Origin: Naegleria gruberi
Taxonomy: Eukaryota
Strand: one strand, 5' to 3'
DNA length: 64,000 nucleotides
NCBI GenBank assembly: GCA_000004985.1
Contig: GG738902.1
In this document: positions 463-40,800 of the stretch, in pieces
How the letters are laid out: each line of letters opens with the position of its first letter
Numbering within the stretch: position 1 is the stretch's first letter
Position numbers and translations under genes: made by a program
Notes under the pieces: generated by a model
The model's database searches: none
Told to the model about the DNA's origin: nothing
The model's input: only the letters and a program-made list of their open reading frames with translations

Positions 463-1039
463 GTTGAATCACGGTAATGTGTTGTTGATTTATAAAATTA
501 AAGCCTGTGATGATTCTTTTAATTTTCGCAAAATCAGAACAAAAAAGTTTTTAGATTTTTTTTTGAAATGTTTGGTGAATGAAAATTTCAACATGAAATT
601 CAAAGATTGAATATAAATTGTAATCGTCCAATGATTACAAACAGTGTATTTTACCGGTAAAAGTGAATCTAAATGCTTCAAGTTTGAACTTGTGGAAGGT
701 GGCTGGTTATTGATGTGGCTGCTGATTTGAGTCTATTTAAGGCTGTTGCTTATTGTTACAAATTTACTTAATCATATCTAATCTTCGTGAAGTGCATGTA
801 TGCGTCCACAATGGTGGAGATAAGATTATAATGTGGCTGTACGAAATTAATCAGCACTAAATTTTTCAAGCGAAATTAACTAAGTGTTTGGTCCCTTAGA
901 AGATAGGTCCGGCAAGAATGAGATATTTTGCGGAAACAATGATACACCAGCAAAATAGTGCCTTGTTAATTTCCTACAGATGCAAAATATATCTATCGAT
1001 TTAATTATTTGCTTCTATTGTGTCTTTCAAGTTATGCAT

Positions 1040-1750: not shown

Positions 1751-2031
1751 GATTGCTTGCTTGTTGCATGGAAAATTCTTAATCACTGTGGCGTTCAGTT
1801 TTTTAAAGTGAATACGTGGAATGAAAGTGTCGGAAGGCTTAAACTAATCAAACATTTTTTATTAAGTTGAAATTTGAAAAACCTTAAAAAATTTACGTTC
1901 ACCGTTAGTACTAATTACTACAATTAGTCGTTTTGTAAACTCTAAAGTGACCAATTTTCAAGGAAAAGAATTCAGTAAACCATCCACTGGAAGAAGATAG
2001 TTCGGAAAAATATTAAAACTTTACAAAAAAA

Positions 2032-14674: not shown

Positions 14675-17600
14675 TTATTGGCTTGTCATTTTGACCACTT
14701 CAGATGTTGGAATTGTCAATGCTTCCATATTGTCGTCGTGATATATTTCAGTAGCATTTTGTACTGGTGGTAAAATAATAGTGCTGTATGGAGGAGGTAA
14801 TATTCCATTACTTACTGGCATATTTCCATATGCTGTAGTGTTGACAGAAGGAGGTTCATAAGAATAATATGCAGTTCTTGGTGGAGATCTTGGAGGACTC
14901 GAAGTAAATGCTGATAATGGTTGAGGATATGGAGTATAGATTGGAGGTGGAGTATTGAGTATTGGTACATCAAACATTTCATACTCATTTCTTCTCTTGT
15001 TGAGAGGAGTATTGGCTTCCTTAGTTGGGAAGAAGACTTCATAGTCAGCAAAGGTATGTGTAGTCTTATTGGTTGAACTAGTTGGACTTCTGTGAACAGA
15101 TTGTTGTTGAGGAGTAGTATAGATTGACTGCTGTTTCTTATTGAGTGGTTTACCACTGGTTGATTTGATTGATTTAGAACTACTACTTGGAGGAGCTTTG
15201 ATGGCACACTTCTTTCTCTTTGGTGCTTGAATGCAAGCAATGAAAAGGAATAAAAAGAACCAAATAGCAAAACCAAGAAGGAATAACCCAAAGGTTGCTG
15301 CAATACATAGATATCTTGCAAGCTCAAATTTGTTTGGAACATAGAGAACCTTTGATCCTTTGCATTGTAAATTACTCCAACCAACAGCACTCAAACCACC
15401 CTCAATGTTTGCCACTTCGAGTGGAGTGGTTGGTTTGTTGGAATTTACGAAAAACTCAGTAATAGGATTAGATGTTGAATGTACATTCAAACACTTGTAA
15501 GTATTTCCAAGTGTGATCATCTCAAAATCAGTATACACTGAATCAGTATAAGTACCAGATTGGACAACACAACAAGCATAGGCAGAATTACTTAATAACA
15601 ATTCGACGTTTGTGTCTTTCATCAAGCTTACTGTTTCAAAGATGGTGATACCTACAACAGATCCAAATCCTCCCAACCATAACACTGCAAGTAGTAAAAG
15701 CATTGTTCCCACTATAAACACAGAGCAATACCTCCTTTTTCTTTCATCCTGACTTTTAACACATCCTCTGCAAACTCTGATGGCAAGAAACATGGGAAGA
15801 GTTGCGAACAGAGCAGGAATGAATGATTCCCACTCCTTTTCATTTTCAATGTTAATCTTCTTTTTCCTGATTGTTTGAATACAGAATACGCAAGTGAAAA
15901 AGAGAGAATACAAGAGAACAATACCAACAATACATCCAGCAGTAATATACGACTCAAAGAAGTAATTTTCAAGGTACACGTTTTCCCCAGATTCTACATT
16001 TTCAGCAGTTCCTCTGAACGAAGCACTTGCAAACGTTTGATCTGTTGGGAATCTTATTAAAATCTTTGAGTATGTTGCAAGTTTGGAAGCATCAACATCC
16101 AAGATGAATTTGAGGGCTTTCAAGGTTGTTTGATGTTGCTTGTAGACATAGTCGTTTCTTGTGGGAGTAATTGTTTCCAACTTGTTTGGATATAACGAAA
16201 TTGCGTATACTGTTGGAGTCGGAACTGAGGTAAATTGTTGACTGAATAATTCAATCAAATACTGTCCAGTGTCTTTGGCATCACTGTAATCCACTTCAAC
16301 AATAGTTCCAGGGTTTACAACAAATTTGGTCAAGTAAGAAGATGATGAGATTGAAGCCTTTGATGGGGTTGTTGTCATTAAATAACTGAACTTGGCTTGA
16401 GAGGAAAAAGAGGAAGAATCGCATGATTGGGGAGAATATGTTTCCAGAGGATGTATGAGCATATAGATAGCCTTATCTTGTAGTTTCAAATATGGAGTGT
16501 TCACAAAAGATGTACCTGAACTAGTCTCAAAGATTATTCCATTTTCGTATCCAATAATGTTGACCTTGTAATTGGTTTGAGATGAAATATCTAGCTTAAT
16601 ATTATAGTTATTAGAGTCTACAGGTTTTCCTACCCCAAGATAAATATTGTACTTCCTACCTGATAACATTAAATTTTGACTGTCCATCAACATTGTAATT
16701 TGGAAATTATTAGAAACAGTATTTACAACCATTCGTTGCGTTACATCTTCTGTTGGAGAAGCATAATATGGTAATTGAATTGTATTATATCCAGGTGAGG
16801 AGAGAGAGAAGGCAAGTTGAGGGGAAGATATGGATTGTACAACATAGTTAACTGTTGTATTTGAAATTGTAAAGGCAGGATCTAATTGAAGGTTAAATTT
16901 CCAAACTCCATTAAGGGATGGCTGAAGCCATGTCGAAATACCAATAGTGTTTGTGAATTCATTCAGACAGTTAACAGTGACAGTCTTAGAAAAAGCAAGA
17001 ACAAATCTCTGAAGAGTTCCTTGTGCGGCTGTTAATTTCAATGTTGGAGGTGTTAAATTGAATTGACCCTGACTTATTACCGGTTGTAAATTCTGAACAG
17101 TTACAAAAGCAAGAAGGTAACTGTCCTCTGTTGGGTTATAGGAGATATAGTAAGGGTAGGATCCTGTTGAAGATTGAGGCAAAGCTTGGCTGTAAACACC
17201 ATCAAGGGGCAGGGAGGGTGGATTTAAGTACATGTTTGGAATTGAAAAGGACAATACTGCAGAACAAGTATCACAATTGTTCTCTACAATCACTATCAAT
17301 GATCCAATAGGAATTTGCTTAAATGAGATTATGTGTGTATAAGTGTTTGAAGCAGAAATGACTTGGTGGGCTTTTGAAACATCGAGAGTGATAGGCATTT
17401 CACCACTTTGGATAATGAATAAATAGTATGGACGAGTGGAGAGTGCAGACGTAGAAATTTCTATATCTTGTGGTGTATTATCCCGAGTGGAGTAGCTTAT
17501 AATTTTTAAGGCATTTACCTCACCATTAACAATTGGTTTAGGAATTGTAAAAGATTGATCAATAGCCATACTCTTAATGCCTTAGTAGTTGAGTTAATTA

Positions 17601-19143
17601 TTTTAACAATTGGCTTATACTTACTCTTTTTCAACATTGTAATAGTACCTGTGGTGTTAGAAACTTTACTATTCGTGATCTTGAAAGTTAGAGATGTTGC
17701 TCCATTCAGTTTAGAATTTAACAATGTTGATGGAATAATAAAGGAAGTGGTTGTGACAGAGATTTGAGGAATCGTTATTGTCTGTAATGTGGCGGAAGAT
17801 GATACAACAATCGTTCCGTTGAAGGTGCTGTTAAAACTAATGTAGGTCTGAATGAAAGCAATCGCTGTGGTAGTGACATACGAAGCAATGATAACTCTCT
17901 TTGAATTATCAACCTTGAATGCTAGTGCTTTTTCATAAACTGAATAATAGGTATTGGGAGAATAAGGATCGACATTGACTGTCGAGTTGCTATTTGTTGT
18001 GGTATTATTATTACTTGCAGTATTGTTGGATGTCTGGGTTGAATTTGTGATTACATTACTAGTAGAATTGACAGACGAATTGGGTATGCCAGTATTATTT
18101 GTTTTAGACAAGTATGTGAGCGAGATTGAGGAGGATTGAACTCTTGAGCTTATCAAAGGATCATAATATTTTCCATTCATACGAGTTGCGTAAGTAACAG
18201 TGGAAGTGGTATTTGTTGTGATATTGCTGTCGTTTCTCCATTTATACATGATGTAAACTTGAATTGATTGACTGGCTTGTAATGTCACATAACTGACATA
18301 AAGACTGGCTGTGTTTGAGCTGCTTATTGGTATGAGAGTATATGATTTGATGGCTGTTTGTACATTTGTTGAATGATTAACCCTAACAAGCTTTACAATT
18401 GAAATATCGAGGTTTGAAATGCTTAGAGATTCGAACTTGATATCCAGATATACGTCTGTTATTGTATCTATACCAGAGTTTTTAATGGTCACAACATTGG
18501 TTGAATTTCTATTTGATTGATTTGATGCAATGACTACCGTTGATGGTTTTGAAGTGATACCCAAATCCACAACAGGTGTTGTTGAAGGAACATAACACAG
18601 ATACAAATACATGGATTGAATTAACAATTCCTCTGGTGTCAATCTCTTCAATGTCAGCTTGTTAGAATAATCTTTCAAATACACATACGAAAGACCAGTA
18701 ACATCCACACTTGATGCTTTCGAAATTCCCAAATTACAAGCATCCTTCGTACCACAATAAACACTGGGATTCAGATAGGGATATTTCATTATATTCAAAT
18801 CATTAATAAGCATTGAATAATTTGCTGAAAAACTCGATGAGGAGGAACATGAAGTAAATCGATAATTAATTTTCGATCCAACCATTCCCTGATAAATCAA
18901 TACTTTCCTACTCGACCCACCAGTATATGAAAATGTTCCATTCAATGAGGTACTTTTCCAACTCTTGTTATAATCATTGCAAACGTAGGAATAATAATTA
19001 TTGGGTGTAAAGAAAACTTCAACATTCTCGCATGTGGGTGAAACATTCTGACCGAAGACTGTAATGTTATTATGTATTACTAGGAAGAATAATACAAGGA
19101 AGACTATTTGATAAGCATTTAAAACTTTTGCAATATTTATCAT
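14675..19143 (-). CDS. Large S/T/N-rich, mucin-like transmembrane surface glycoprotein. It is read as two overlapping ORFs (17515..19143 and 14675..17569) that probably form one gene.
   Basis: The upstream ORF has a signal peptide (MINIAKVLNAYQIVFLVLFFLVIHN) and dense N-x-S/T sites. The downstream ORF continues the same composition. It ends with several TM helices and a proline-rich cytoplasmic tail carrying PPxY-like motifs (PPPYSTI, PPIYTPYP). The junction at 17515..17569 is unresolved; it may be a 54-nt intron or a frameshift. Confidence 0.5.
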
Positions 19144-19897: not shown

Positions 19898-20337
19898 TTT
19901 TTTTTGTTTTGTGTAATGAATAAACGTGTGCGGTTTTATCCACTTGCAGAATGCATGTGTGTTAGTTGCAGTGAGGAATAATCGGAACTAATAATGTTTG
20001 ACCTTAATTCTCTGTTCACTGAATGTTACATGCATTTGGAGACAAAACTGGATCTAACCAAAGACCAGGATGAGGGTGGGATTTTCTTTGTAATCCTCTC
20101 TCTTCTCAGTTAAACAATAAGAACACCCTCAGAGAAAATTCAATTTCTATCATGGGTCAACTACAAGTATAGGATACTTCTGACAAACATAATTCAGTTG
20201 ACCTTCACTGGAAAGTTCATACCTTGATCCAAAACCAGTCCTCAAAAGTTCATTATTTTTATTATTAAAAAAAATTGCCAAGTCCTTTGTTGGAGGTTTG
20301 AAATTCATCGTCGTCGTCTTTGAGAAGGATAATAATA

Positions 20338-23300
20338 ATGGCCAGTAGCAGTAATAATAATTGTATTCTCACCACATCGGATGATGGTGACTCTATCTAT
20401 TTTGTCTCATCACGGGATAAGCAACATACACTCAAGCAATTACAAACGAGTACGGAACATTTTCAAAAGAAGGAATACAAAGTAGCCATTGAAATATTGG
20501 AGAAGTGTGTTCAGATACCCTCGGATACATTGATCACTGTTTCAGGGTGTGATTTCAATGATGGAGAATGTATCAAGGGAATAGCTGAACAAGCTGATAA
20601 ACAAATTGTTGAATTAATTGGAAAGATGTTTATCACTAAAGGACTTTGCTATTTTAATTCGACAATTGTTGCTGAGAGTGATGAAAAGAAGGATCTGTAT
20701 TTTACTAAAGCACTGCAAGATTTTGCTGCAGTTGCCAGACACTACAAACTGTACAAACAATTGTATTATTATGATAATCAACAATCACTCTTGCAAGATA
20801 TCGATGGCTTGTATGTATTTGTTACAACTATGAAGTCGTACTTCCTTGAGGGAAGATGTCTTCAACAATTGAGGGGATATCAAGTGGACGGAATTTCATC
20901 TCTGGAGAAGGCAGTCATTGCATTTAGTGAGGCAATTCAAATGGCCGAGTATTTGAAGAGTAATTCATCAGGGGTGGCCAGTGAGAAGGTTTGTCTCTCT
21001 GCTCTCGAACAATTGCCACAATATTATCTCAATAGAGCCCTCTCTCATAATGATATCAATTCTTACAGACCAGCAGAGGCCGATTTTACGAGTTACATCT
21101 CACTGATTGGTAATACTAACGATAAAGAAAGAAAATCTACATTATTCATGATTGCTTATCATAATAGAGGAATTTCACTTTCCTACATGCAAAAGTACGT
21201 GGAGGCAATTGAGGATTTCACAAAATCAATTGAACATTACCAGGAAATTCCACAAAATAGTCCAGACAAGAAACAACAATTTGATAGCTTTTTAGAAACT
21301 CACTCCAAAAGGGCTAAAGCAATTCATAGATTCATTGTGGATCATGTACACGACTGCAGAGATAATAACGACAAAGCAATGATGGACAAGATTTTGAAAC
21401 TCAAAACTCTTGCATGTGAAGATTTTGAATTTGTAAGCAAACACAAGCCTAATAGTGTTTATAATAATCATTTCAACACGAGCCAAATTTTGAATATGGT
21501 GGCAACCATTCTCTCCCCAATATTACCAAAGGAAGTTCAATTTGAGCTTTACTCTCAATCTATTCCACACTTGAGAGAATGCATCAAACAGGGAAATAAC
21601 TACAAGACAAGTTTGGATCTTGCTAAAGCATTGTCAAAAACTGGAACTGGTCAAAATGAAGAAATTCTCGATTTGTATAATAGAGCTGTGAAATTATTGG
21701 ATGTTGAATCAAGCAAAAAAGTTTCTGGAGAGCAGAAGGCAAATATATTCTTTGAGAGAGGAGTTTTGTACAACAAAATGGAAAGAGTAGAACAAGCCAT
21801 TATGGACTTTACTACTTCTATTGATTTACATCAACAGTTTTTGGAAGCTTACTTTAATAGAGCCATTCTTTATTATACTAAAAGTAGAAATACAATTTTA
21901 GCTATTAAGGATTTGGAAAAAGTTATTGAAATCGATCCTAAAGATACCACTGCCTTGATAGAACTGGCAGTTTTATTGGCCTCTAATGGTCAAGTTGAGG
22001 AAGGTACCAAGAGATTGAATCAAACCTTAGAATGTGACCCAAACAATGAAACAGCTCACAAATATTTGAAAATTCTCCAAGAAAATGAATCTCCTCTTCC
22101 CTCCAATGATATTTTCGAGATTAGAGAAGATCATGTCGAGGAAGTGCCTTTCACTATTCGTCAAGTTCAAAGACCCACTTCTGACAACTTTGGATTCAAA
22201 CTCTTCAAAAAGAAGACTAAGGAGGTTGATCCTGAAGAACAACTGAAGCAGTCAGTACCTCCACCAAAAACAAGATCTACCAATTCAATGTTTTTGGACA
22301 ACTCTCTTCCACCAATAACCAGTTCCATTCTAGGAGCTGGAACTAGAGCAGATTTTGATCTTCCACCTCACATTGTAAATTTGGATACAGATCTTGTCTG
22401 GTTACGTCCTTCACAAATAACTGGTGTAACCAAGCCAGCACTTTTTGTCGATGGTTCCAATTATAAGGATGTCATTCAAGGTTCTCTTGGTAATTGTTGG
22501 ATGCTTAGTGCAATGGCCATTGTTGCTTCTCATGATTTTGTAATGAAAAAGGTTGTTGTTGAATCAAAAACAAACTCTGCAATTGGAAAATACACATTTT
22601 GCCTTTTCAAGGAGGGACGGAATAAGGAAATTACTATTGATGACTTGATTCCTTGTGATGTAACTACAAATTCGTATGTGTTCTCCAGATCAGCAGATCC
22701 CAACGAGTTGTGGGTGCCACTGTTGGAGAAGGCTTACGCAGCTCTCTATGGAAATTATTTCTCCTTGAAGGGAGGTCATTTGAAAGATGCTCTCGTTGAT
22801 CTTACTGGTGGTATTTCATTTTCATATGATATTGACCCAAAAAAGATTGAGGAAGTGTGGCAATACCTTTCGTGCCTACCAAAGCAAAACAGCTCAAGTA
22901 GCTCCTTCAAATTGATGGGTGCAAGATCCGAGACATCAGCTTCTGACTATACTGGTATTATCAATTTCCATGCCTATGCTATTTTGGATGCTATAGAGTT
23001 CCCTCCACATTTAACCAATAGTCAGAGAGTAAGATTAATCAAAATGAAAAATCCTTGGGCTAACGGAATTGAATGGAAGGGAGAGTGGTCAGATTATTGC
23101 CCTCGCTGGAGTCCAGAGCTTAGAAAATATGTAGGAAATGACTTTAATTCTCAAGATGGTATTTTTTACATGTCATTGGAATATTTTGTTGTCCAATGGA
23201 ATATGATTGAAGGTGTGGAAATTTTCGTAAATGGAAAATGGAATGAATTCTTAGCGACTGGAAGATTTGATTCAAATATTAGAAGCGATAACAATTGGAT

Positions 23301-23679
23301 GTTAGATGTTTTGGAAGAAACCCAATTCTTTATTGAAAACCCATATGAAAATAATCGTTTGGTAATTTCACTCACTCAGTTGGACACCAGATATGTTCAC
23401 GATTCAAAGGATGATGATTCATGTATTGCAGTTCATTTGATTAGAGTTGATCAGCCATCCCCATCTAGATTGATCAAGATCAACAAGAAGGATATCATAG
23501 TTCAAGGTGATTACAAATACGACAGAGAAATAGTCGTTGATTGTTGTCTTCCATCAGGTTCCTACGTTGCCATACCTCACGAATATTTTACTACCAATTG
23601 TAAAAATACTGAACTGGGAGCATATACCATTAGAATTTTATCAGAAAGTAAGGTAAAGGTCACTACGATCAATCCTTAA
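20338..23679 (+). CDS. Calpain-family cysteine protease with a long N-terminal TPR-repeat region.
   Basis: The catalytic Cys motif is QGSLGNCWMLSAMAIVASH. The His block is HAYAILDA and the Asn/Trp block is KNPWANGIEWKGEW. The N-terminal 600 aa contain TPR-like 34-aa units. The first ATG is at 20338; the track start is TTG. Confidence 0.8.
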   Translation: MASSSNNNCILTTSDDGDSIYFVSSRDKQHTLKQLQTSTEHFQKKEYKVAIEILEKCVQIPSDTLITVSGCDFNDGECIKGIAEQADKQIVELIGKMFITKGLCYFNSTIVAESDEKKDLYFTKALQDFAAVARHYKLYKQLYYYDNQQSLLQDIDGLYVFVTTMKSYFLEGRCLQQLRGYQVDGISSLEKAVIAFSEAIQMAEYLKSNSSGVASEKVCLSALEQLPQYYLNRALSHNDINSYRPAEADFTSYISLIGNTNDKERKSTLFMIAYHNRGISLSYMQKYVEAIEDFTKSIEHYQEIPQNSPDKKQQFDSFLETHSKRAKAIHRFIVDHVHDCRDNNDKAMMDKILKLKTLACEDFEFVSKHKPNSVYNNHFNTSQILNMVATILSPILPKEVQFELYSQSIPHLRECIKQGNNYKTSLDLAKALSKTGTGQNEEILDLYNRAVKLLDVESSKKVSGEQKANIFFERGVLYNKMERVEQAIMDFTTSIDLHQQFLEAYFNRAILYYTKSRNTILAIKDLEKVIEIDPKDTTALIELAVLLASNGQVEEGTKRLNQTLECDPNNETAHKYLKILQENESPLPSNDIFEIREDHVEEVPFTIRQVQRPTSDNFGFKLFKKKTKEVDPEEQLKQSVPPPKTRSTNSMFLDNSLPPITSSILGAGTRADFDLPPHIVNLDTDLVWLRPSQITGVTKPALFVDGSNYKDVIQGSLGNCWMLSAMAIVASHDFVMKKVVVESKTNSAIGKYTFCLFKEGRNKEITIDDLIPCDVTTNSYVFSRSADPNELWVPLLEKAYAALYGNYFSLKGGHLKDALVDLTGGISFSYDIDPKKIEEVWQYLSCLPKQNSSSSSFKLMGARSETSASDYTGIINFHAYAILDAIEFPPHLTNSQRVRLIKMKNPWANGIEWKGEWSDYCPRWSPELRKYVGNDFNSQDGIFYMSLEYFVVQWNMIEGVEIFVNGKWNEFLATGRFDSNIRSDNNWMLDVLEETQFFIENPYENNRLVISLTQLDTRYVHDSKDDDSCIAVHLIRVDQPSPSRLIKINKKDIIVQGDYKYDREIVVDCCLPSGSYVAIPHEYFTTNCKNTELGAYTIRILSESKVKVTTINP

Positions 23680-26987: not shown

Positions 26988-29528
26988 TTAGCAAGATTTG
27001 TTGACTAGTTCAGCAAGAAGTTTTTTCATGTCCTCTCTATTAAAAACATCCAAAGTTACAATTTGAATTTGATTTCTCTTTTCATCATTCGAAACTTGAT
27101 TTAAAAATTGTTTGATAATGTACTTGGTATTCAATTCTAGATATTCATCAGTGACTTGAATTGATTGCTCAGGTTCTTTGAGGTCATCTTCGGTGAGTGG
27201 AATAATTCTCTCAGGAGGGTTGTTGAATTTGAGACAAGAATCAATCATTTCTTGAGTGATTCCTTCCTCAGATTGTTCATGCGTAAGAGATTCCTTAATT
27301 TGCTTTCGTTGACTTTCTAATTGTTGCTCCAATGTAGATAAATTAATGGAAACACTCACACAACGATTGTCTTGGAATCTTCTGGTCTTTCCTGAAGAGG
27401 CTTCAATAGAAACCTCAATGAAACTGCTTTGTCTTGAATGAGATTCATCCAATGATGATGAGCTTTCGTCAGTGACATTTCTTGTTGTTGCTGGCTTAAT
27501 GACTTGATCGGAAAGTTTTGGTTCTTCAAAGGTTTCAACCTTTTCCATACAAACAACTGGAGAATCCACAGAATCTTCGTCTCTCAAATGAGATGGAATT
27601 GGAGATTTCTTTTCTGGAGTGGCAGGAGGTGGAATTTGTGGGCTAACTTGAATAGTTTCCTTCTTTTCTGGCATGGTTGTTGGGTCAATTTTAGATGTTC
27701 TCTTTTGCATAATTTCCTCTGGGAATGGATCAAGACGAACGAAATTTTCTGGAGTTTCAGATAGTAAATTAGAAAGATAGGCATCTGACAAGTCGCAGTA
27801 AACTAATTTTCTCTTGAGTGATTCCTTCTTTGTAAAGACGAGAATGAATGGAACATGTTCCAATTCTGGCATGTTAACAGTTCTGTTGAAAAATTCCAAC
27901 GAATCAATTAATTGATTTTTCAATGTCAACAAATGGTTGTGTTGTAAACTTTGATGACGTGATAGGAAATTAGATGAAGCACTGTCGATGAGTGGCTTGA
28001 ATTTTGGTGATTTCAAAGTCTTTTTCTTGGCTCTTTCCTTTTCCAATAGATCAGTATGTTTCACATTGACACTACTACCAGTTGGTGATGTCAAGGTGGA
28101 AATGAGCTTGTCATTGGATGAGGCATCACTACCACTTTCATAAACTGGTTTTTCAAGAGTCAATACCTTATCTACAAGTGGAGAACCAGGAGTTCTCGAA
28201 TCAGTTATTGAAATTGTGGAGCCGTACAATCCCAAAATATCATCAACTGAATACTGATTGTAACAAGTGAGTGAAACAAAGTACAAAATGGCAACTCCCT
28301 GAGTTTTGATTGGTTTCTTACTGGAAGTAGCATTTTGTTCACTTGAATTGGCGGATGTATTGCTGTCAGTTGTGGTATTGAGTGGAGTAGATGAAGCATT
28401 TACAGATGATGAGCTAGGTGCTGTATTTTCAGATTTCTTCTTCTTCTTCTCTTCCTTTTCCTTATCCTTTCCAGAGGAGGTTGTTGAACTTGTCAATGGT
28501 TGAGATTCTTCATAGAGCTTGGAGAGCAAAATCTTCTTCCACTTTTTTCTATCTGATCTAACACCTGCACTGTCAATCATGTGAAGTGAACGAATGATTG
28601 GTTTTGGTTTTTGAGGGAGTGCATTCTTTTCAGAGTCCTTACTCTTTTTAGAGGAGCTTGTTGATGTGGTTGCATTCTCAGTGGTAGATGTGCTCTTTCT
28701 CTCTGTAATGATTTTAATTTCACTCTCATAGAAACCTCGAGTCATATTCGAAGCTAACAAGTATTCAGTTTCAGATTTCAATTCTGTATCAGAAAATCCC
28801 TTTCTAGCTCTTCTCAATCTTTCTGCTATTTGATTACAATGAGTAATGACATAATTGAAATGTTCGAAATGTTGCCATTGTGGTTGTTTTGGAACTGTAT
28901 TCACATTTCCATTTTTATCCAACACATTTCCTGAAATAATCGATCCCACTTGAGTATTTCCAAACAAGTACAATAATTCTGGTGAAATTTTGTTATAATA
29001 CAAGATGGTGTAAATTTTGTGTAAAATTGTCTCAGTTGCCCACAACATTGAAATTTGTTGCATCATTCCTGCATCACTCCATAACAATTCTGGCTTAACA
29101 ATTGCTTGTTGCAGTAAACACCGAGAAGCATCTCCCTGTTCTCCACCATTCTCATTCTCACCTGCCCCTGCCTCATTCGAGCACTGTTCCACGATTGAAA
29201 TTTTTACAATTTTCAACAATTTTTCATCAATTAAATTTTTTGATGATGGAAATCGATAATCAATTTCGTTGAAAATTTTCTTCTTGACACAAATAATGAA
29301 CAATAACCATGAGAACATGCTGCTGAGTAATTCTTCGTGGAATTTTAGTGAATTTTTGGACATGCTGCCACCCAATAGGAGATTGGACATTTTGCAGAAG
29401 GATGTCTTTCCCGAATTGCTTACACCCATAAGGAGAAGGTGATGGAGTTGTTGTTGTTGTTGCTGTTGTTGGAGATTATAGTCGAAGGGTTGATCTTCGT
29501 CTCCGTGCCGACTCATTTGTTGTCCCAT
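26988..29528 (-). CDS. Divergent heterotrimeric G-protein alpha-subunit-like protein of 846 aa, with a myristoylation-type N-terminus and large low-complexity insertions.
   Basis: MGQQMS has Gly2 followed by Ser6. The P-loop LLLMGVSNSGKTS matches LLLLGAGESGKST. HMIDSAGVRSDRKKWKKI matches FDVGGQRSERKKWIHCF. GVAILYFVSLTCYNQ matches VTAIIFCVALSDYD. PFILVFTKKES matches IILFLNKKDL. IQIVTLDVFNRE matches the TCAT region. Confidence 0.7.
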   Translation of the reverse strand: MGQQMSRHGDEDQPFDYNLQQQQQQQQLHHLLLMGVSNSGKTSFCKMSNLLLGGSMSKNSLKFHEELLSSMFSWLLFIICVKKKIFNEIDYRFPSSKNLIDEKLLKIVKISIVEQCSNEAGAGENENGGEQGDASRCLLQQAIVKPELLWSDAGMMQQISMLWATETILHKIYTILYYNKISPELLYLFGNTQVGSIISGNVLDKNGNVNTVPKQPQWQHFEHFNYVITHCNQIAERLRRARKGFSDTELKSETEYLLASNMTRGFYESEIKIITERKSTSTTENATTSTSSSKKSKDSEKNALPQKPKPIIRSLHMIDSAGVRSDRKKWKKILLSKLYEESQPLTSSTTSSGKDKEKEEKKKKKSENTAPSSSSVNASSTPLNTTTDSNTSANSSEQNATSSKKPIKTQGVAILYFVSLTCYNQYSVDDILGLYGSTISITDSRTPGSPLVDKVLTLEKPVYESGSDASSNDKLISTLTSPTGSSVNVKHTDLLEKERAKKKTLKSPKFKPLIDSASSNFLSRHQSLQHNHLLTLKNQLIDSLEFFNRTVNMPELEHVPFILVFTKKESLKRKLVYCDLSDAYLSNLLSETPENFVRLDPFPEEIMQKRTSKIDPTTMPEKKETIQVSPQIPPPATPEKKSPIPSHLRDEDSVDSPVVCMEKVETFEEPKLSDQVIKPATTRNVTDESSSSLDESHSRQSSFIEVSIEASSGKTRRFQDNRCVSVSINLSTLEQQLESQRKQIKESLTHEQSEEGITQEMIDSCLKFNNPPERIIPLTEDDLKEPEQSIQVTDEYLELNTKYIIKQFLNQVSNDEKRNQIQIVTLDVFNREDMKKLLAELVNKSC

Positions 29529-31193: not shown

Positions 31194-31485
31194 TTTTTTT
31201 AACTGGAACCACAAGATCTCATCAAAAATCAACATTCAAACTCTTGAATTTTCCAACATTGCATTGTAAAAAGTTAACTTGACTTTCAAAGATTCGGCAA
31301 AGAACAACAAGGAACAACAAAGTTGGATTGAAACAAATTGATGATACACAGAAATCCATTAGAATGGATTTTTTCTCTTTTTAAGATTGATATTAACTCT
31401 AATAACACACCCTTTGGAACTTTGGCGTAACATTCCAGGAACAATGAATTCAATTCTTATTACAATTTTTCATTTTAAAAAAAAA

Positions 31486-32768
31486 ATGCTCAACACATCT
31501 GCTGCTACCGGAATCAACCAATCTAATAATAGCATCAATAATAACCTAAAAGACGAGAAGAATGATGATGAAATAACTAGTGAAGTGTGTCCTCTTTCAT
31601 TCTATGAAGAATCTGGTTTTTATCACAATCATTTAGAATATACAAACAAGTATTTGTATGATCCGAATCAATTTGTTGATCAATTTCATAAGAGTATAAA
31701 GGAGAAGAATTTTAACAAGTTGAGAAGTTTGAGAATTTTAATTCAACAGCAAACAATTGATATTTGTAGAAGTAGAGTGTATAATTATAGACCTATTGAT
31801 GGAGAATTTTCATTGGATAAGAAGAAGAGGATAGAATTGAGTGAGAAGATTCTCGTGAATGCCTCTGTAAAGAGTAAATATTATAAGAATGAAGGATTGG
31901 AGGTGAGTGAGAAGGTTGGAGATTTGGAAAAAACTCAAGTTTTGGTTATTAATGGTGATTGTATTGATATTGCATTCCATATTCAAGATTTGTTGATTAA
32001 GGAAGGTAAATTTGGAAAGGAAAGAGTTGCTGTATTGAATATGGCTAATCCAAATACACCTGGAGGTGGATACAAGGGAGGATGTGGGTAAGTTTCTTTC
32101 AATATTATTTAATCCAAAAATTCATATTGAAACTATATTACAGAGCTCAAGAAGAAAATTTACACAGAAGATCAAACTTGTATCAATGCTTGGACAATTA
32201 TGTAGACAAGATTGACAAGACTAGAACATGGAATTATCCAATAGGATATGAAAGTGGAGTCTATAGTCCAGATGTTACATTCTTCAGAGGATGTGAAGCT
32301 AAGGGTTATCCACTCCTTTCTGCTCCAAGATTAGTCGATGTCATTACCACTGCTGCAGTTCCAAACTCTCTCAATCATGGTGATGGAGAAATTGATGAGA
32401 GAAATATTGGCAGTATTGAGGCCATTTTAAAGATTGCAGTTCAACACGGAGTTAGAAATGTGGTCTTGTCGGCTCTTGGTTGTGGAGCTTTCAGAAACTC
32501 TCCAACAGCAATTGCTAAAGTTTTCAAGGAAAAGATTGAAGGTCCACAATTCAAAGGCCACTTTGATAGACTCTACTTTGCAATCATTGAAGATCACAAC
32601 TCAAAGAAGGGACATAATCCTGATGGAAATATCAAACCCTTTGTCCAAGTTTTCAATGATTATTTGAAGGATAGAACCGATGTAACAGAACTCACTGACT
32701 CACAATTCAATTATGATTATGATAATATGAATGATGTATATCAGCAATACTATGAAGAAAGTAGGTGA
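31486..32768 (+). CDS. Bacterial-type poly(ADP-ribose) glycohydrolase (DUF2263 / macro-fold PARG) in two exons: 31486..32087 and 32144..32768.
   Basis: Splicing GTAAGT...ATTACAG joins ...NTPGGGYKGGCG to AQEENLHRRSNLY. This creates the PARG catalytic signature GGG-X7-QEE. Downstream, ...VVLSALGCGAFRN... fits a macro-domain fold. The ATG context is AAAAAAAAATG. Confidence 0.7.
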
Positions 32769-34449: not shown

Positions 34450-35205
34450 ATGTCATCAGAGTTAATCGTGCCACCAACACCAAGAGGTGCAGCCTCTACA
34501 TCAGAAACAGCTCCAATCACTGAAATTGTAGCATTAAAAATTTCATACGAAATTCCAGAACAAATTTTATCCGAAAATGAACTTGATCAATCACACATTA
34601 GAATAACTTATTGTTTTCCTTCGGATACTTTAGTACAACAAGTTAAAAAACAATTTATTTCTCACTTGTTGGCTAAAGGAGTTGTTAATTTGGAAGTTTC
34701 TAATAAGAATGATGTAGATTCGAATACATTGGATCAGTTTCGTTTACTTGTTACAGGTGGAAAGGAATTATTAGTCGATAAAAAATCACTTCAAGAAAAT
34801 AGAATTGAAAATAATGGCAAACCACTTTCTGTCAATTTAATCAAAATTTCTAATAATCCATCCGAAACTGATGACGAAAATGTTGTAAACCTTTCAGATT
34901 ACGTCGAACGTGAAACTATCAAAATCAAAAAGAAACATGTCGAAGTCAAGCTCAGAATCCAAGAAAAAGTTGGTGATCAAGTTTTAACATGTGACATTTC
35001 CTGTAAAAACAATAAGAAATTTGGAGTCATTTCAAAAATGTATTGTCAACACAGAAATTATAATGCTGAAGATTTTGTGTTTGCAACAAGTGTTAATCAC
35101 GTCTTGTTGAAGAATGAAAAATCACTTTCAAGTATGGGAATGGTTGAGCAAGGAACTGTTTATGTTATTAATGTTTATCATAAGGATTTGGTTAGTTTTA
35201 AATAA
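34450..35205 (+). CDS. Hypothetical protein with two ubiquitin-like-fold segments, at low confidence.
   Basis: FRLLVTGGKELLVDKKSLQENRIENNGKPLSVNLI resembles the ubiquitin C-terminal half ([30 protein letters not shown]). A second similar block lies near the C-terminus. Confidence 0.35.
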   Translation: MSSELIVPPTPRGAASTSETAPITEIVALKISYEIPEQILSENELDQSHIRITYCFPSDTLVQQVKKQFISHLLAKGVVNLEVSNKNDVDSNTLDQFRLLVTGGKELLVDKKSLQENRIENNGKPLSVNLIKISNNPSETDDENVVNLSDYVERETIKIKKKHVEVKLRIQEKVGDQVLTCDISCKNNKKFGVISKMYCQHRNYNAEDFVFATSVNHVLLKNEKSLSSMGMVEQGTVYVINVYHKDLVSFK

Positions 35206-37895: not shown

Positions 37896-40800
37896 ATGCC
37901 ACTACACCAAACTTTCATCTACACTGGGAAGCTACAACCAGACGAAACTAAACATACAACATTTCCAACAACAAGAACAATATCGCGGAATAGTCGAATT
38001 TCTTTCTCTTCATCAACTATAACCACAAATTTAATTATTTCAATTCTACTGCTAGCATTTATCACCTCTCTCATACAATCTCTATATTATCAGATAGTGT
38101 ATTCATCCAACAATGACAACAAACTTTATAGTCACACATTCTTTGTGAATGCTGCCACTACATGCTATGGTGTTGACAGCACGGATCCTAGTGTTTGCTC
38201 GGGTAATGGAAATTGTACCAGTAAGAATAATTGTGAGTGCAATGATGGATTTAGTGGAAACAAATGTCAAACAGAGACGGTGAAATGTTATGGTGTAGTA
38301 GATACTGATCCTACAGTATGTTCAGGTCATGGAAATTGCTCTAGTAAGAATAATTGTCTGTGTGATTCAGGGTACAGTGGTAACAAGTGTCAAACCTTTG
38401 ATGGTACTAGTTCGATATCGTGTTATGGAATCGATTCGACAGATAGTTCAGTTTGTAATTACAATGGTAATTGCACAGCAACGAATAATTGCGTTTGTAA
38501 TCAAGGATATAGTGGAAATCAGTGCCAAACATTGGATAGCTCTTTTAAATGTTATGGAGTTGACTCTACTGACGTTTCTGTTTGTAATGGAAATGGAAAT
38601 TGTACATCAACTAATAATTGTGTCTGCAAATCTGGTTACACTGGGAATCAATGTCAAAATGAAGATAGTTCATTTAAATGCTACGGGGTTGACTCGACAG
38701 ATATCTCTGTTTGTAGCGGAAATGGAAATTGTACAAGCTCAAACAATTGCGAATGCAAATCTGGTTATACTGGTAATCAATGTCAATCAATTGATAGCTC
38801 TTTCAAGTGTTATGGTGTTGATTCGATAGATATCTCTGTTTGCAATGGAAATGGTAATTGCACTAGTTCAAATAATTGTGTTTGTAAATCTGGTTACAGT
38901 GGAAATCAATGTCAAACCTATGATGGCGGTAATAGTGGTTCATTTAAATGCTATGGAGTTGATTCTAGTGATATCTCTGTTTGTAGTGGAAACGGTAACT
39001 GTACTTCTGCTAATAATTGTGAATGTAAGGCAGGTTATAGCGGCAATCAATGCCAAACCTTCTCTACCTCTTTTAAGTGTTATGGTGTTGATTCGACAGA
39101 TAGTTCAGTTTGTAATGGAAATGGCAATTGCACCTCCTCTAATAATTGCGAATGTAAATCTGGATACACAGGAAACCAATGTCAATCAATTGATAGCTCG
39201 TTCAAGTGTTATGGTGTTGATTCGATGGATGTCTCTGTTTGCAATGGAAATGGTAATTGCACTAGTTCAAACAACTGTGTTTGTAAATCTGGTTACAGTG
39301 GGAATCAATGTCAAAACAATGATGGCAGTAGCACCATTAAATGTTATGGTATTGATTCGACTGACCCATCAGTTTGCTCAGGTCATGGTATCTGTTCCTC
39401 AACCAACGACTGCCAATGTGAAAATGGTTACAGTGGAAATAAGTGTCAAACCTTTGCAAACGAAACATCTACTTTCAAATGTTATGGTGTAGATTCTTCG
39501 GATCCTACTGTTTGCTCTGGTAATGGAAACTGTACATCCACCAACAATTGCCAATGCCAATCAGGATTCAGTGGAAATAAGTGTCAAACTACAGTTAATT
39601 ATTGCTTTGGTTATGATGAAAATGATAACAATGTTTGTGGTGGTCCAGATCGAGGAAAATGTACATCTAACGATGTTTGTGAATGTAAGGGAAGCTACGT
39701 TGGTTACGATTGTGGTGCTTTTGTTTCAGACAAATCACTCATCAAAATAACCTCAAAATATTCAAAGATTCTAAGCACCAATACTGACATTAATTTCATA
39801 ACAATTAGTATTCCAAAGCTCACTAACAGCTACAAGGGAATTGAGAATAGACTCAAGAGTACTTTGGTGATTTTCAGCAGTAATGTTACTATTGATTATT
39901 CCACTACTGGAATGATTGAACAGTTTCAATTGTATAAGAACATGACACTTGGCGTCTACTCTCTCAATTTAACCATTGTTGATACTACTTATAACATTCA
40001 AGTTGCTGCTACTGTTGAGAGCTCAATATTTTCTATACTGACTCTTGAACAAACTACTCAAAGTGTGGATACCTTGACAGCAAAAGAAATTGCACAAGTT
40101 ACAAAGCAATTGAACCAAATTACAAACCAACAACAATTTATTTCTACTGTGGTTTCTACTTTGAAAGAGAATGTTAATAATTACACAATTGATGATGGTT
40201 TAGATTTGACTTCGTCACTATTAGATATTTCCAATGTCAAGTTGGATACTAAATCTAAACTGGGAATATCTGAAACCCTAAAATCATATGCTCAAAATAT
40301 GATCGAAAAGTTTGACAATTTCACAACAGAACAAGTCAAACCAGTTGCAATTAACATCGTTTCTGTTGCCTCAAATATTTTAAATCAATCTATATTTACT
40401 GAACCATCATCTAAATTTGTGGTTATCGGTAATTCTATTCAATCCGTTGAAAAGACACTTTCCCTTGTTACGATTGTTAATCCAACAGAAAATTTATCAA
40501 TTGAAACTTCGATGATTAAGGTTCTTCTCATTTCAAAATCAGAATACAAGAATTTACATACTATAGATAAGGATTATACTCTTAATCTTCCAGAATTGGG
40601 GTTTGAATATTCGTTTGGTTTGGTAAAATATGAAAATTACTTGACAGAAGATTTGCAAAACACAAGTTCAATTTCTGACATTTTGCAAGTGAGACCAATG
40701 TTGAATGGTGTTTTTAGCCCTCTCAGACATTTATCCACTCCATTCAATTTGACTTTCTCTATCAAACATTTCGGTGCGCCACCAAGTAATGAAACAGTTG

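What the first reader, a model, noticed from the sequence alone, without database searches (positions are those of the whole stretch)
26988..29528. G-alpha-like protein with substituted switch II, NKxD and TCAT motifs and large insertions
Alignment by eye to Gi-alpha is clear at the P-loop, the SERKKW box, the beta-strand after switch II, the NKxD region and the C-terminal helix. However, DVGGQ is replaced by DSAGV, so the catalytic Gln and one Gly are lost. NKKD is replaced by TKKE and TCAT by TLDV. About 500 aa of S/T/K/E low-complexity sequence are inserted. This looks like a myristoylated G-alpha scaffold that probably cannot hydrolyse GTP, and perhaps cannot bind it with normal specificity. 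It could be a pseudo-GTPase regulator. It lies about 8 kb from a 7TM-RGS receptor gene.
Basis: partly seen in the sequence, partly recalled or inferred. Interest (0 to 1): 0.6.

Follow-up and report, generated by a model that had tools for sequence, protein, structure and literature searches.

The report
Catalytically dead G-alpha-like protein of Naegleria
This Naegleria gruberi gene encodes a conserved, much enlarged relative of G-protein alpha subunits that keeps its phosphate- and magnesium-binding residues but has lost every residue needed to hydrolyse GTP, so it is probably a permanently "on" or non-cycling signalling scaffold rather than a switch.

Summary
Window 26988..29528 (-) is one uninterrupted 846-aa ORF, identical to N. 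gruberi XP_002671904.1 (NAEGRDRAFT_81415). It matches Pfam G-alpha above the curated cut-off (53.7 vs 48.8 bits).

The motif changes are real and conserved in N. lovaniensis, N. fowleri, Willaertia magna and two environmental sequences:
- DVGGQ -> DSAGV
- NKKD -> TKKE (TKKD or TKMD in two relatives)
- TCAT -> TLDV

The switch-I arginine finger is Ser (R178 -> S260). The P-loop Gly/Glu pair is Ser/Asn (G42/E43 -> S37/N38). All phosphate and Mg2+ ligands are invariant: GxxxxGKT, T263, D319, G322.

The core is under purifying selection (dN/dS 0.12). An AF2 model of the loop-deleted core (pTM 0.75) matches full-length G-alpha structures, with both the Ras-like and helical domains.

About 490 extra residues sit in surface loops. 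Only part of this is low complexity, and several blocks are invariant.

The most likely reading is a GTPase-dead, probably nucleotide-bound, N-myristoylated G-alpha derivative. It would work like Rnd/RhoH or, loosely, plant XLG. No biochemistry was done.

The neighbouring 7TM-RGS gene exists, with only a weak RGS match, but the linkage is absent in N. lovaniensis.

Deviant G-alphas in Naegleria are already noted in the literature, so interest is moderate.

The parts
26988..29528 (-). Complete intron-less CDS (846 aa plus stop) of the G-alpha-like protein, N. gruberi NAEGRDRAFT_81415
   Evidence: Pfam G-alpha 53.7 bits
29511..29528 (-). N-terminus MGQQMS (aa 1-6): N-myristoylation consensus (Gly2, Ser6), with no Cys for palmitoylation. 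It is followed by a short, non-conserved Q/T-rich stretch instead of a normal alphaN helix.
   Evidence: sequence; conserved as MGQ..S in N. lovaniensis, N. fowleri and env P0005
29403..29426 (-). G1 / P-loop G35VSNSGKT42. GxxxxGK[ST] is intact. The G42 equivalent is Ser37 and the E43 equivalent is Asn38.
28764..29351 (-). All-helical domain (aa ~60-255). It carries a 21-aa acidic/Gly loop (aa 113-133) and a ~45-aa Naegleria-specific expansion (aa ~170-215).
   Evidence: AF2 helices at core 53-230, which map to aa 60-258; Foldseek matches to full-length G-alphas
28725..28757 (-). Switch I LASNMTRGFYE (aa 258-268). The Arg finger R178 is Ser260, the Mg2+ ligand T181 is kept as Thr263, and the RGS-contact T182 is Arg264.
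28605..28700 (-). Insertion in the beta2-beta3 hairpin (aa 277-308). S/T/K-rich low complexity.
28524..28577 (-). G3 / switch II IDSAGVRSDRKKWKKILL (aa 318-335). DxxG is kept, G202 is Ala321 and the catalytic Q204 is Val323. RSDRKKW is invariant.
28311..28505 (-). Insertion in the alpha2-beta4 loop (aa 342-406). S/T/K/E low complexity, variable in length between species.
27948..28220 (-). Insertion in the beta4-alpha3 loop (aa 437-527). It has conserved blocks such as K.KH.DLLEK.R..K..LK.P..KPLIDS.SS.FLSRH.SL.HN.
27822..27833 (-). G4 T566KKE569 in place of NKxD (TKKD in env P0004, TKMD in Willaertia)
27150..27716 (-). Insertion between alphaG and alpha4 (aa 605-793). It is P/S/E-rich and variable, but holds the invariant block R722CVSVSINL (window 27327-27365) and the block MIDSCLKF.NP.E..PLTEDDLKEPE.
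26991..27149 (-). alpha4-beta6-G5-alpha5 (aa 794-846). G5 is T825LDV828 (window 27045-27056) in place of TCAT. alpha5 ends 8 residues short of a canonical G-alpha C-terminus.
   Evidence: (bridge via P0019 'VTSAT')

Best explanation
The gene encodes a functional but non-catalytic derivative of a heterotrimeric G-protein alpha subunit. The family is restricted, as far as public data show, to the vahlkampfiid amoebae Naegleria and Willaertia.

Shown:
- It keeps the G-alpha fold, with a Ras-like domain and an inserted helical domain.
- It keeps every residue that grips the phosphates and Mg2+: P-loop Gly/Lys/Thr, switch-I Thr263, and switch-II Asp319 and Gly322.
- It keeps the switch-II RSDRKKW segment.
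- The three positions that make a G-alpha a GTPase are all replaced. The Ras-G12-equivalent Gly is Ser, the switch-I arginine finger is Ser/Thr, and the switch-II Gln is Val/Leu.
- The base-recognition boxes are relaxed (TKK[E/D], TLDV).
- The receptor-coupling C-terminal tail is 8 residues short.
- The alphaN region is short and unconserved.
- About 400 residues of partly disordered, Ser/Thr-rich loops have been added on the surface.
- The core is under strong purifying selection.

Inferred:
- The protein loads a nucleoside triphosphate, most likely GTP, and then stays in the 'on' conformation because it cannot hydrolyse it.
- It is tethered to membranes by N-myristoylation.
- It acts as a constitutive adaptor. 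Its output would be set by abundance, by partners binding switch II and the conserved loop blocks, or by phosphorylation of the loops, and not by a receptor/RGS-driven GTPase cycle. This is how Rnd/RhoH small GTPases work.
For: Homology and fold:
- Pfam G-alpha is above threshold.
- There are four collinear HMM blocks.
- The AF2 core model has pLDDT 72 and pTM 0.75, with beta1-alpha1, helical domain, beta2, beta3, alpha2, beta4, alpha3, beta5, alphaG, alpha4, beta6 and alpha5 in order.
- The 50 Foldseek PDB hits listed, ranked best-first, are all full-length G-alphas, with E 4e-12 to 1e-10 and target-normalised TM 0.67-0.81.

Residue map:
- G35, G40, K41, T42, T263, D319, G322 and K567 are identical in N. 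gruberi, N. lovaniensis, N. fowleri and Willaertia (39% core identity), as are those of these positions that the N-terminally truncated environmental P0004 covers.
- S37, S260 (Thr in Willaertia), A321 (Ser in Willaertia) and V323 (Leu in Willaertia) replace G42, R178, G202 and Q204.

Not a pseudogene or an error:
- The ORF is intact in five assemblies.
- For N. lovaniensis vs N. fowleri, dN/dS is 0.117 in the core (dS 0.415) and 0.39 in the loops.
- N. gruberi vs N. lovaniensis identity is 70% in the core and 29% in the loops.

Lineage restriction: an HMM search of 1.84 billion representative proteins found only 5 proteins at E<1e-10, all from this family. Canonical G-alphas scored only E 1e-6 to 1e-4.

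Why these substitutions matter:
- Established knowledge, not tested here: G-alpha-i1 R178C and Q204L, and Ras G12/Q61 substitutions, abolish GTPase activity while preserving GTP binding.
- G-alpha-i1 G42V is described as GTPase-deficient and constitutively active in PMC9283941.
- Rnd1-3 and RhoH lack the G12-equivalent Gly; RhoH additionally has altered switch II. They behave as constitutively active, GAP-insensitive proteins controlled by expression, phosphorylation and turnover (PMC13236570).
Against: - No nucleotide-binding or hydrolysis measurement exists.
- The G4 and G5 boxes are non-canonical: N269 -> Thr, D272 -> Glu in Naegleria, and the TCAT Ala -> Asp. Guanine affinity could be low and the protein could be nucleotide-free in vivo, as proposed for plant XLG2.
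- The AF2 model was built with canonical G-alphas in the alignment and on a spliced construct, so it is biased toward the G-alpha fold. The full-length model with 4 sequences failed (pLDDT 32).
- Hydrophobic substitutions of the catalytic Gln occur in GTPases that still hydrolyse by other means (HAS-GTPases; own knowledge).
- Myristoylation, membrane location, partners and phosphorylation are all inferred.
- Expression of the N. gruberi gene was not checked.
Confidence: 0.55

Rival explanations
1. Nucleotide-free pseudo-GTPase. The pocket no longer holds guanine nucleotide at cellular concentrations, and the protein acts purely as a protein-protein interaction scaffold, for example sequestering G-beta-gamma or other partners. 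This is what has been proposed for plant XLG2.
For: - Both base-recognition boxes are degenerate: TKKE for NKxD and TLDV for TCAT.
- The E43-R178 'lid' pair over the nucleotide is lost.
- XLGs are a precedent for G-alpha derivatives that work without nucleotide (PMC8584482).
Against: - XLGs show weak conservation and outright loss of nucleotide-binding motifs. Here GxxxxGKT, the Mg2+ Thr, and the DxxG Asp and gamma-phosphate Gly are invariant down to Willaertia at 39% core identity. That is hard to explain if nothing is bound.
- The G4 Lys is invariant, and the acidic residue is kept as D or E.
Confidence: 0.22
2. Still a cycling GTPase that uses a non-canonical catalytic mechanism. The missing Arg/Gln function would be supplied in cis by a conserved loop block, for example the invariant Arg722 of RCVSVSINL. 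Alternatively it would be supplied in trans by a dedicated GAP, as RapGAP does for Rap, or by dimerisation and cations as in HAS-GTPases.
For: - The Gln is replaced by a hydrophobic residue (Val/Leu), the signature of HAS-GTPases (own knowledge).
- Invariant blocks of unknown role lie inside the insertions.
- Close Naegleria paralogues already lack the arginine finger (Tyr) while keeping DTGGQ. This clade may therefore have evolved an alternative to the in-cis Arg.
Against: - Three independent catalytic determinants are lost together (G42, R178, Q204 equivalents).
- The RGS-contact T182 is Arg/Lys, which argues against canonical RGS GAP action.
- The RCVSVS block is placed with pLDDT <50 in the model, so no structural support exists.
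- No candidate GAP was identified.
Confidence: 0.13
3. Decaying gene, mis-annotation, or in-frame introns mistaken for coding insertions.
For: - The match to canonical G-alphas is very weak: 20% core identity to GNAI1, and hhalign finds only the P-loop.
- The insertions are long and compositionally biased.
Against: - The 2.5-kb frame is open in a 34% GC genome.
- The same architecture is open in N. lovaniensis, N. fowleri, Willaertia (two copies) and environmental contigs.
- Core dN/dS is 0.12 and loop dN/dS is 0.39, below 1.
- The loops contain invariant blocks.
Confidence: 0.03

Closest known systems
Long Naegleria G-alpha paralogues: N. lovaniensis C9374_014751 and C9374_011780, N. fowleri FDP41_001721, and the F-box-G-alpha FDP41_002612
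   Same: - They are the nearest non-family relatives found.
- The N-terminus is MGQ.
- The P-loop is G..GSGK[ST], the G4 starts with Thr (FTK..), and the G5 is degenerate with Asp (V[ID]D[LI]).
- The arginine-finger position is already not Arg (Tyr).
- They carry loop insertions (559-611 aa) and a short alpha5 tail.
   Different: - They keep DTGGQ (both Gly and the catalytic Gln), the G42-equivalent Gly and switch-I KTTG.
- They score 99-228 bits against a canonical G-alpha HMM, versus 17-27 bits for this family.
- Their G4 ends in Asn (TK[KR]N), not Glu/Asp.
Plant extra-large G proteins (XLG1-3)
   Same: They are enlarged G-alpha derivatives with deviant catalytic motifs that are thought to signal without a GTPase cycle (PMC8584482).
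   Different: - XLGs add a long N-terminal Cys-rich/NLS domain. Here the extra ~490 aa are internal loop insertions and the N-terminus is only 27 aa before beta1.
- XLGs have poorly conserved nucleotide-binding motifs. Here the phosphate/Mg2+ ligands are invariant.
- The origin is independent: the nearest relatives are Naegleria G-alphas.
Rnd1-3 / RhoH (GTPase-deficient atypical Rho proteins)
   Same: - The logic is the same: the G12-equivalent Gly is lost (in RhoH also with changes in the G3/switch II motif), the protein is constitutively active (GTP-loaded on synthesis in the case of the Rnds) and GAP-insensitive, and it is lipid-anchored.
- Regulation is by expression, phosphorylation and turnover (PMC13236570).
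   Different: - They belong to a different GTPase family (small Rho, with no helical domain).
- GTP binding of the Naegleria protein is unproven.
GTPase-dead mutants of canonical G-alphas (G-alpha-i1 G42V, R178C, Q204L; G-alpha-q Q209L)
   Same: The same three positions are altered, here naturally and all together. G42V is described as GTPase-deficient and constitutively active in PMC9283941, and Q209L as constitutively signalling in PMC12033907 (abstract).
   Different: Those are single engineered or oncogenic changes in otherwise canonical proteins with intact NKxD, TCAT, alphaN and C-terminal tail.
N. fowleri G-alpha-6 (Bosch et al. 2022)
   Same: It is a Naegleria G-alpha with a low-complexity insertion N-terminal to switch I and no detectable activation by GTP or GppNHp, and RGS domains do not bind it (PMC9283941).
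   Different: - G-alpha-6 is about 383 aa and is still activated by AlF4-/Mg2+, so it has a competent catalytic site.
- It is not shown to be related to this family.

Membership tests
Heterotrimeric G-protein alpha subunit (Pfam PF00503) | Profile match above the curated gathering score | tested here: met
   53.7 bits vs 48.8, E 2.3e-14. The margin is small; orthologues also carry PF00503.
Heterotrimeric G-protein alpha subunit (Pfam PF00503) | Ras-like domain with an all-helical domain inserted between alpha1 and switch I | tested here: met
   The AF2 core model (pTM 0.75) matches full-length G-alpha structures with TM 0.67-0.81. Caveat: the alignment contained canonical G-alphas.
Heterotrimeric G-protein alpha subunit (Pfam PF00503) | G1 P-loop GxxxxGK[ST] | tested here: met
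   G35VSNSGKT42, invariant in the family. The inner G42/E43 are S/N.
Heterotrimeric G-protein alpha subunit (Pfam PF00503) | Switch I with an in-cis arginine finger and a Mg2+-binding Thr (R-x-x-T-x-G) | tested here: not met
   The Arg position is Ser260 (Thr in Willaertia). Thr263 is kept.
Heterotrimeric G-protein alpha subunit (Pfam PF00503) | G3 DxxGQ with the catalytic Gln | tested here: not met
   DSAGV: D and G are kept, and Gln is Val (Leu in Willaertia).
Heterotrimeric G-protein alpha subunit (Pfam PF00503) | G4 NKxD and G5 TCAT guanine-recognition boxes | tested here: not met
   TKKE (TKKD/TKMD in relatives) and TLDV/VLDI/IIDA/VLNC.
Heterotrimeric G-protein alpha subunit (Pfam PF00503) | C-terminal alpha5 tail that inserts into the receptor | tested here: not met
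   There are 18 residues after the G5 box, versus 27 after TCAT in GNAI1. It ends ...ELVNKSC.
Heterotrimeric G-protein alpha subunit (Pfam PF00503) | Binding to G-beta-gamma, GTP binding and GTP hydrolysis | not testable with these tools
   Sequence hints only: RSDRKKW is kept, alphaN is short and unconserved.
Plant XLG (extra-large G protein) | Long N-terminal Cys-rich/NLS extension before the G-alpha-like domain; land-plant lineage | tested here: not met
   The P-loop starts at aa 35 and the extra length lies in internal loops. The nearest relatives are Naegleria G-alphas.
GTPase-deficient, constitutively GTP-bound GTPases (Rnd/RhoH-type functional class) | Substitutions at the Ras G12 and Q61 equivalents with retained P-loop Lys/Thr, Mg2+ Thr and DxxG | tested here: met
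   S37 and V323 are substituted. G35, G40, K41, T42, T263, D319 and G322 are invariant.
GTPase-deficient, constitutively GTP-bound GTPases (Rnd/RhoH-type functional class) | Demonstrated GTP binding without hydrolysis | not testable with these tools
   Needs purified protein.
HAS-GTPases (hydrophobic residue in place of the catalytic Gln, still active) | Hydrophobic substitution of Gln plus an alternative catalytic device (K-loop, dimerisation) | tested here: inconclusive
   Val/Leu is present at the position. No alternative device was identified. Known HAS-GTPases are other families (own knowledge).

The most novel reading that the evidence does not exclude
Vahlkampfiid amoebae, including the pathogen N. 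fowleri, have evolved a heterotrimeric-G-protein counterpart of Rnd/RhoH, independently of plant XLGs. It would be a myristoylated G-alpha that loads GTP once and never hydrolyses it. It would have given up receptor, RGS and possibly G-beta-gamma coupling. Its signalling would be gated by phosphorylation of, or partner binding to, about 400 residues of inserted loops containing invariant motifs such as RCVSVSINL, an R-x-x-S site.
Probability: 0.3. Interest if true: 0.55.

Novelty: new member of a known kind. Interest (0 to 1): 0.4.

Why it matters
Naegleria has one of the largest G-alpha repertoires known, 44 in N. gruberi according to PMC8584482. Its G-protein system runs on self-activating G-alphas and 7TM-RGS proteins (PMC9283941).

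A conserved member that has lost the whole catalytic apparatus but kept the phosphate/Mg2+ site would be a natural 'locked' G-alpha. Three uses follow:
- It would be a comparison point for plant XLGs in the debate over nucleotide-independent G-alpha signalling.
- It would be a test case for which G-alpha surfaces remain under selection once cycling is lost.
- Because an orthologue exists in N. fowleri (XP_044567528.1), it is an uncharacterised component of a pathway that has been proposed as a drug target.

It is not a new principle. Deviant catalytic motifs in some Naegleria G-alphas have already been remarked on (citing Anantharaman et al. 2011).

Tried and rejected
- hhalign of the four-orthologue profile against GNAI1 aligned only the P-loop, because the insertions break local alignment. 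It was replaced by phmmer/HMM domain hits and E-INS-i alignment.
- Full-length AF2 with 4 sequences gave pLDDT 32 and was unusable. A spliced 519-aa core with 37 sequences worked.
- MAFFT twice placed canonical beta6/TCAT/alpha5 on the invariant 'RCVSVSINLSTLEQQLE' block. I rejected this for four reasons. The HMM aligns alpha4 to aa 797-821. The bridging paralogue P0019 has 'VTSAT' aligned to 'VTLDV'. AF2 builds beta6 at 822-826 and alpha5 at 831-845 with pLDDT about 90. The 730-749 helix is too polar for a buried alpha5.
- A GoLoco-like '...SQR' in that block was considered and dropped, because the Q-R is not conserved (QK, QT in relatives).
- The word-indexed homologue searches were swamped by low-complexity words or found no canonical G-alphas. 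The exhaustive HMM search and a search seeded with P0008 were needed.
The weak RGS of the 37896..42590 ORF appeared only with Pfam at relaxed E and with PDB phmmer.
- Conserved-neighbour lead: the 251-aa ORF 34450..35205 is adjacent to the orthologue in three other assemblies. It gave only a sub-threshold PI3K_rbd hit (E 0.045) and no PDB hit. By eye its C-terminus looks SUMO/ubiquitin-like. No functional link is claimed.
- Literature: no paper in the library mentions the accessions. Anantharaman et al. 2011 is not held, so I could not check whether this exact protein is in their list of deviant G-alphas.


Full report
**1. What is at the coordinates**

Window 26988..29528 (-) is a single 846-aa ORF from the first available ATG to the stop. 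The window is about 34% GC throughout. The protein is identical over its full length to the NCBI 'predicted protein [Naegleria gruberi]', accessions XP_002671904.1 / EFC39160.1 / UniProt D2VVS8 / NAEGRDRAFT_81415. No paper in the searchable library mentions these identifiers or the N. fowleri orthologue's locus tag.

**2. Is it a G-alpha?**

Yes, but a very divergent one.
- Pfam G-alpha (PF00503) scores 53.7 bits (E 2.3e-14) against a gathering score of 48.8.
- PDB phmmer hits are all G-alphas, through the P-loop and switch II.
- An HMM I built from 28 canonical G-alphas returned, plus GNAI1, hits four collinear blocks, adding alpha4 (aa 797-821).
- Core identity to GNAI1 is only 20%.
- In an exhaustive HMM search of 1.84 billion representative proteins, only five proteins reach E<1e-10, all members of this family. 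Ordinary G-alphas appear only at E 1e-6 to 1e-4.

**3. Fold**

Full-length AF2 with four sequences failed (pLDDT 32). I then spliced out the five large loops to make a 519-aa core (map) and aligned it with 36 relatives (A3). AF2 gave pLDDT 72 and pTM 0.75.

The model has the complete G-alpha secondary-structure order:
- beta1 (aa 27-35), alpha1 (41-51)
- a helical domain (60-258)
- beta2 (266-274), beta3 (312-320), alpha2/switch II (324-340)
- beta4 (412-419), alpha3 (539-551), beta5 (561-566), alphaG (568-577)
- alpha4 (794-809), beta6 (822-826), alpha5 (831-845)

The 50 Foldseek PDB hits listed, ranked best-first, are all full-length G-alphas (Gs, Golf, Gq, G13, Gi1, Gt), with E 4e-12 to 1e-10 and target-normalised TM 0.67-0.81. 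Caveat: the alignment contained canonical G-alphas, so this shows compatibility with the fold. It is not independent discovery of the fold.

**4. Residue map (GNAI1 numbering in brackets)**

Kept and invariant in N. gruberi, N. lovaniensis, N. fowleri and Willaertia, and in environmental P0004 for the positions that N-terminally truncated sequence covers (G35, T263, D319, G322, K567):
- G35, G40, K41, T42 (P-loop G40, G45, K46, S47)
- T263 (T181, Mg2+ ligand)
- D319 and G322 (D200, G203 of DxxG)
- R324-S-D-R-K-K-W330 (R205 to W211)
- K567 (K270)

Replaced:
- S37 (G42, the Ras G12 equivalent)
- N38 (E43)
- S260, Thr in Willaertia (R178, the arginine finger)
- R264, Lys in Willaertia (T182, the main RGS contact)
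- A321 (G202; Ras has Ala here)
- V323, Leu in Willaertia (Q204, the catalytic Gln)
- T566 (N269)
- E569, Asp in P0004 and Willaertia (D272)
- T825-L-D-V (T-C-A-T)

Only 18 residues follow the G5 box, versus 27 after TCAT in GNAI1. The receptor-inserting tail is therefore missing.

The region before beta1 is 27 aa, Q/T-rich and unconserved. It does not look like a normal alphaN helix.

The N-terminus fits the N-myristoylation pattern in N. gruberi (MGQQMS), N. lovaniensis, N. fowleri and env P0005, but not strictly in Willaertia.

**5. The C-terminal alignment needed care**

MAFFT twice aligned canonical beta6-TCAT-alpha5 to the invariant block R722CVSVSINLSTLEQQ. I rejected this in favour of the extreme C-terminus for three reasons:
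- The HMM places alpha4 at 797-821.
- The N. fowleri paralogue P0019 has a recognisable 'VTSAT...VRELLEYVFDTII' aligned to 'VTLDVFNREDMKKLLAELV'.
- AF2 builds beta6/alpha5 there with pLDDT about 90.

**6. The insertions**

The protein is 492 aa longer than GNAI1. The large loops are:

| Location | Residues | Length |
|---|---|---|
| Helical domain loop | 113-133 | 21 aa |
| beta2-beta3 hairpin | 277-308 | 32 aa |
| alpha2-beta4 loop | 342-406 | 65 aa |
| beta4-alpha3 loop | 437-527 | 91 aa |
| alphaG-alpha4 region | 605-793 | 189 aa |

A further ~45-aa expansion sits inside the helical domain.

The beta2-beta3 and alpha2-beta4 loops are 88% S/T/K/E/N/Q/P/D and vary in length between species. 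The two largest loops are about 65% such residues and contain blocks invariant across the four Naegleria-type sequences, for example ILGLYGSTISIT at the C-terminal edge of the core just before the beta4-alpha3 insertion, KPLIDS.SS.FLSRH, RCVSVSINL and CLKF.NP.E..P..E.D.

These stretches are coding, not introns. They are open in every orthologue, and their dN/dS is below 1 (0.39).

**7. Family, distribution and selection**

Members found:
- N. lovaniensis XP_044544108.1 (949 aa)
- N. fowleri XP_044567528.1 (953 aa)
- Willaertia magna KAL9644722.1 and KAL9644768.1 (897 and 903 aa)
- Two environmental fragments

For the unsaturated N. lovaniensis / N. fowleri pair, dN/dS is 0.117 in the core (dS 0.415) and 0.39 in the loops. 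N. gruberi vs N. lovaniensis identity is 70% in the core and 29% in the loops. This is a maintained gene, not a pseudogene.

The nearest other proteins are long Naegleria G-alpha paralogues: P0017, P0050, P0018, P0008, and the F-box-G-alpha P0019. They already have several of this family's traits:
- Tyr at the arginine-finger position
- Thr at the first G4 position (P0019 keeps a canonical FNKKD)
- a degenerate G5

They still keep DTGGQ, KTTG and the G42-equivalent Gly. The family therefore looks like the end point of stepwise erosion of the catalytic machinery within a Naegleria-specific G-alpha clade (inference).

**8. Mechanism**

From established G-protein biochemistry, the G42, R178 and Q204 equivalents are the determinants of GTP hydrolysis. 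Single substitutions at any one of them give GTPase-deficient, GTP-bound proteins. Examples are G-alpha-i1 G42V (quoted in PMC9283941) and Q209L in G-alpha-q (abstract of PMC12033907).

All three are replaced here. Every phosphate/Mg2+ ligand and the gamma-phosphate-sensing Gly are invariant even at 39% core identity.

The most economical reading is a protein that still binds a nucleoside triphosphate and adopts the 'on' switch conformation but does not turn over. Rnd1-3 and RhoH work this way, and are instead controlled by abundance, phosphorylation and degradation (PMC13236570).

Three features argue that it is uncoupled from the receptor/RGS cycle: the missing alpha5 tail, the unconserved alphaN and the T182 -> Arg change.

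The relaxed G4 and G5 boxes leave open weak or altered base specificity. Plant XLGs are thought to be nucleotide-free, but there the nucleotide motifs themselves are poorly conserved (PMC8584482).

My probabilities are:
- about 0.55 for 'hydrolysis-dead but nucleotide-binding'
- about 0.22 for 'empty pocket'
- about 0.13 for 'still hydrolyses by a non-canonical route'
- about 0.03 for artefact or decay

**9. Genomic context**

The ORF 37896..42590 (+), 8.4 kb from the gene's 5' end, has these features:
- ten EGF_2 repeats
- a GPS-like CxW...CxCxHxT motif and a multi-TM region
- a C-terminal RGS-like box with the F..F...E.S.EN...W signature
- a sub-threshold Pfam RGS score (18.1 vs 23.9 bits)
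- weak PDB hits to RGS5 and RGS3 (E about 0.1)

This fits the EGF/GPS-bearing 7TM-RGS proteins that Bosch et al. describe in N. fowleri, which has 28 7TM-RGS plus 79 other RGS genes.

The +/-10 kb around the N. lovaniensis orthologue contains no match to this ORF or to other window genes. The one exception is a 251-260-aa gene, window 34450..35205 (+), which flanks the orthologue in N. lovaniensis, the N. fowleri-like contig and an environmental contig. It belongs to no recognisable family.

I therefore treat the 7TM-RGS proximity as coincidental.

**10. Novelty**

[quoted passage not shown] 2011). I could not access the cited paper.

Bosch et al. list 13 N. fowleri G-alphas, five of them uncharacterised. 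Whether the orthologue is among them is unknown.

The kind, a catalytically deviant G-alpha, is known. This particular conserved family is not described in anything I could search. Its distinguishing features are the triple catalytic loss, the intact phosphate site and the giant loops. I rate it a new member of a known kind, with moderate interest (0.4).

Noticed in passing
window 37896..42590 (+): A 1564-aa adhesion-GPCR-like protein. It has ten EGF_2/teneurin-type EGF repeats, DUF7949, a GPS-like motif (CKYWNETTNEWLSDGCSTTILSADQVLCSCYHTTKF), a multi-TM region and a C-terminal sub-threshold RGS box (Pfam 18.1 bits vs 23.9; PDB RGS5/RGS3 at E about 0.1). It is probably one of the Naegleria 7TM-RGS family.
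   Followed up: partly
window 34450..35205 (+); L001 12965-13747, L002 5563-6345, L003 2330-3091: A 251-260-aa gene with no family assignment lies next to the G-alpha-like gene in N. lovaniensis, an N. fowleri-like contig and an environmental contig, and about 5 kb away (rearranged orientation) in N. gruberi. Its C-terminal ~100 aa are almost invariant. By eye it looks ubiquitin/SUMO-like. The only hits are a weak PI3K_rbd match (E 0.045) and no PDB match.
   Followed up: partly
P0008, P0017, P0050, P0018 (N. lovaniensis C9374_014751 / C9374_011780, N. fowleri FDP41_001721): The sister clade of long Naegleria G-alphas keeps DTGGQ. It has Tyr at the arginine-finger position and TK[KR]N instead of NKxD. 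The Asp -> Asn change is the classic switch to xanthine-nucleotide specificity in other GTPases. Its G5 is V[ID]D[LI].
   Followed up: partly
P0019 (N. fowleri FDP41_002612, 766 aa): A G-alpha fused to an F-box domain (Pfam PF12937 plus PF00503 in the precomputed annotation). This is an unusual architecture linking a G-alpha to SCF ubiquitin ligases.
   Followed up: no
window 58915..62412 (+): An 1165-aa ORF that fuses a complete pyruvate phosphate dikinase (PPDK_N, PEP-utilizers, PEP-utilizers_C) to a C-terminal adenylate kinase domain (ADK, E 1.7e-48).
   Followed up: no
window 31387..32091 (+) and 32082..32768 (+): Two overlapping ORFs carry the N-terminal (profile 11-96) and C-terminal (profile 97-145) halves of a microbial-type PARG catalytic domain. 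This is most likely one gene interrupted by a short intron or a frameshift.
   Followed up: no
window 14675..17569 (-) and 17515..19143 (-): Two large ORFs that overlap by 55 nt on the same strand. Both are Ser/Thr/Asn-rich with no Pfam hits. The upstream one starts with a signal-peptide-like segment and the downstream one ends with about four TM helices and a Pro/Tyr-rich tail. They are probably one ~1500-aa surface protein split by an intron or frameshift.
   Followed up: no
window 20320..23679 (+): A TPR-repeat protein fused to a calpain protease domain (Peptidase_C2, E 5.5e-69) and calpain domain III.
   Followed up: no
L003 3..338 and 332..2314: In the environmental contig the orthologue is called as two genes in different frames. 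Aa 140-226 of the N. gruberi protein match L003 3-266. This indicates an intron or frameshift, or an assembly error, in the helical-domain region of that organism.
   Followed up: no
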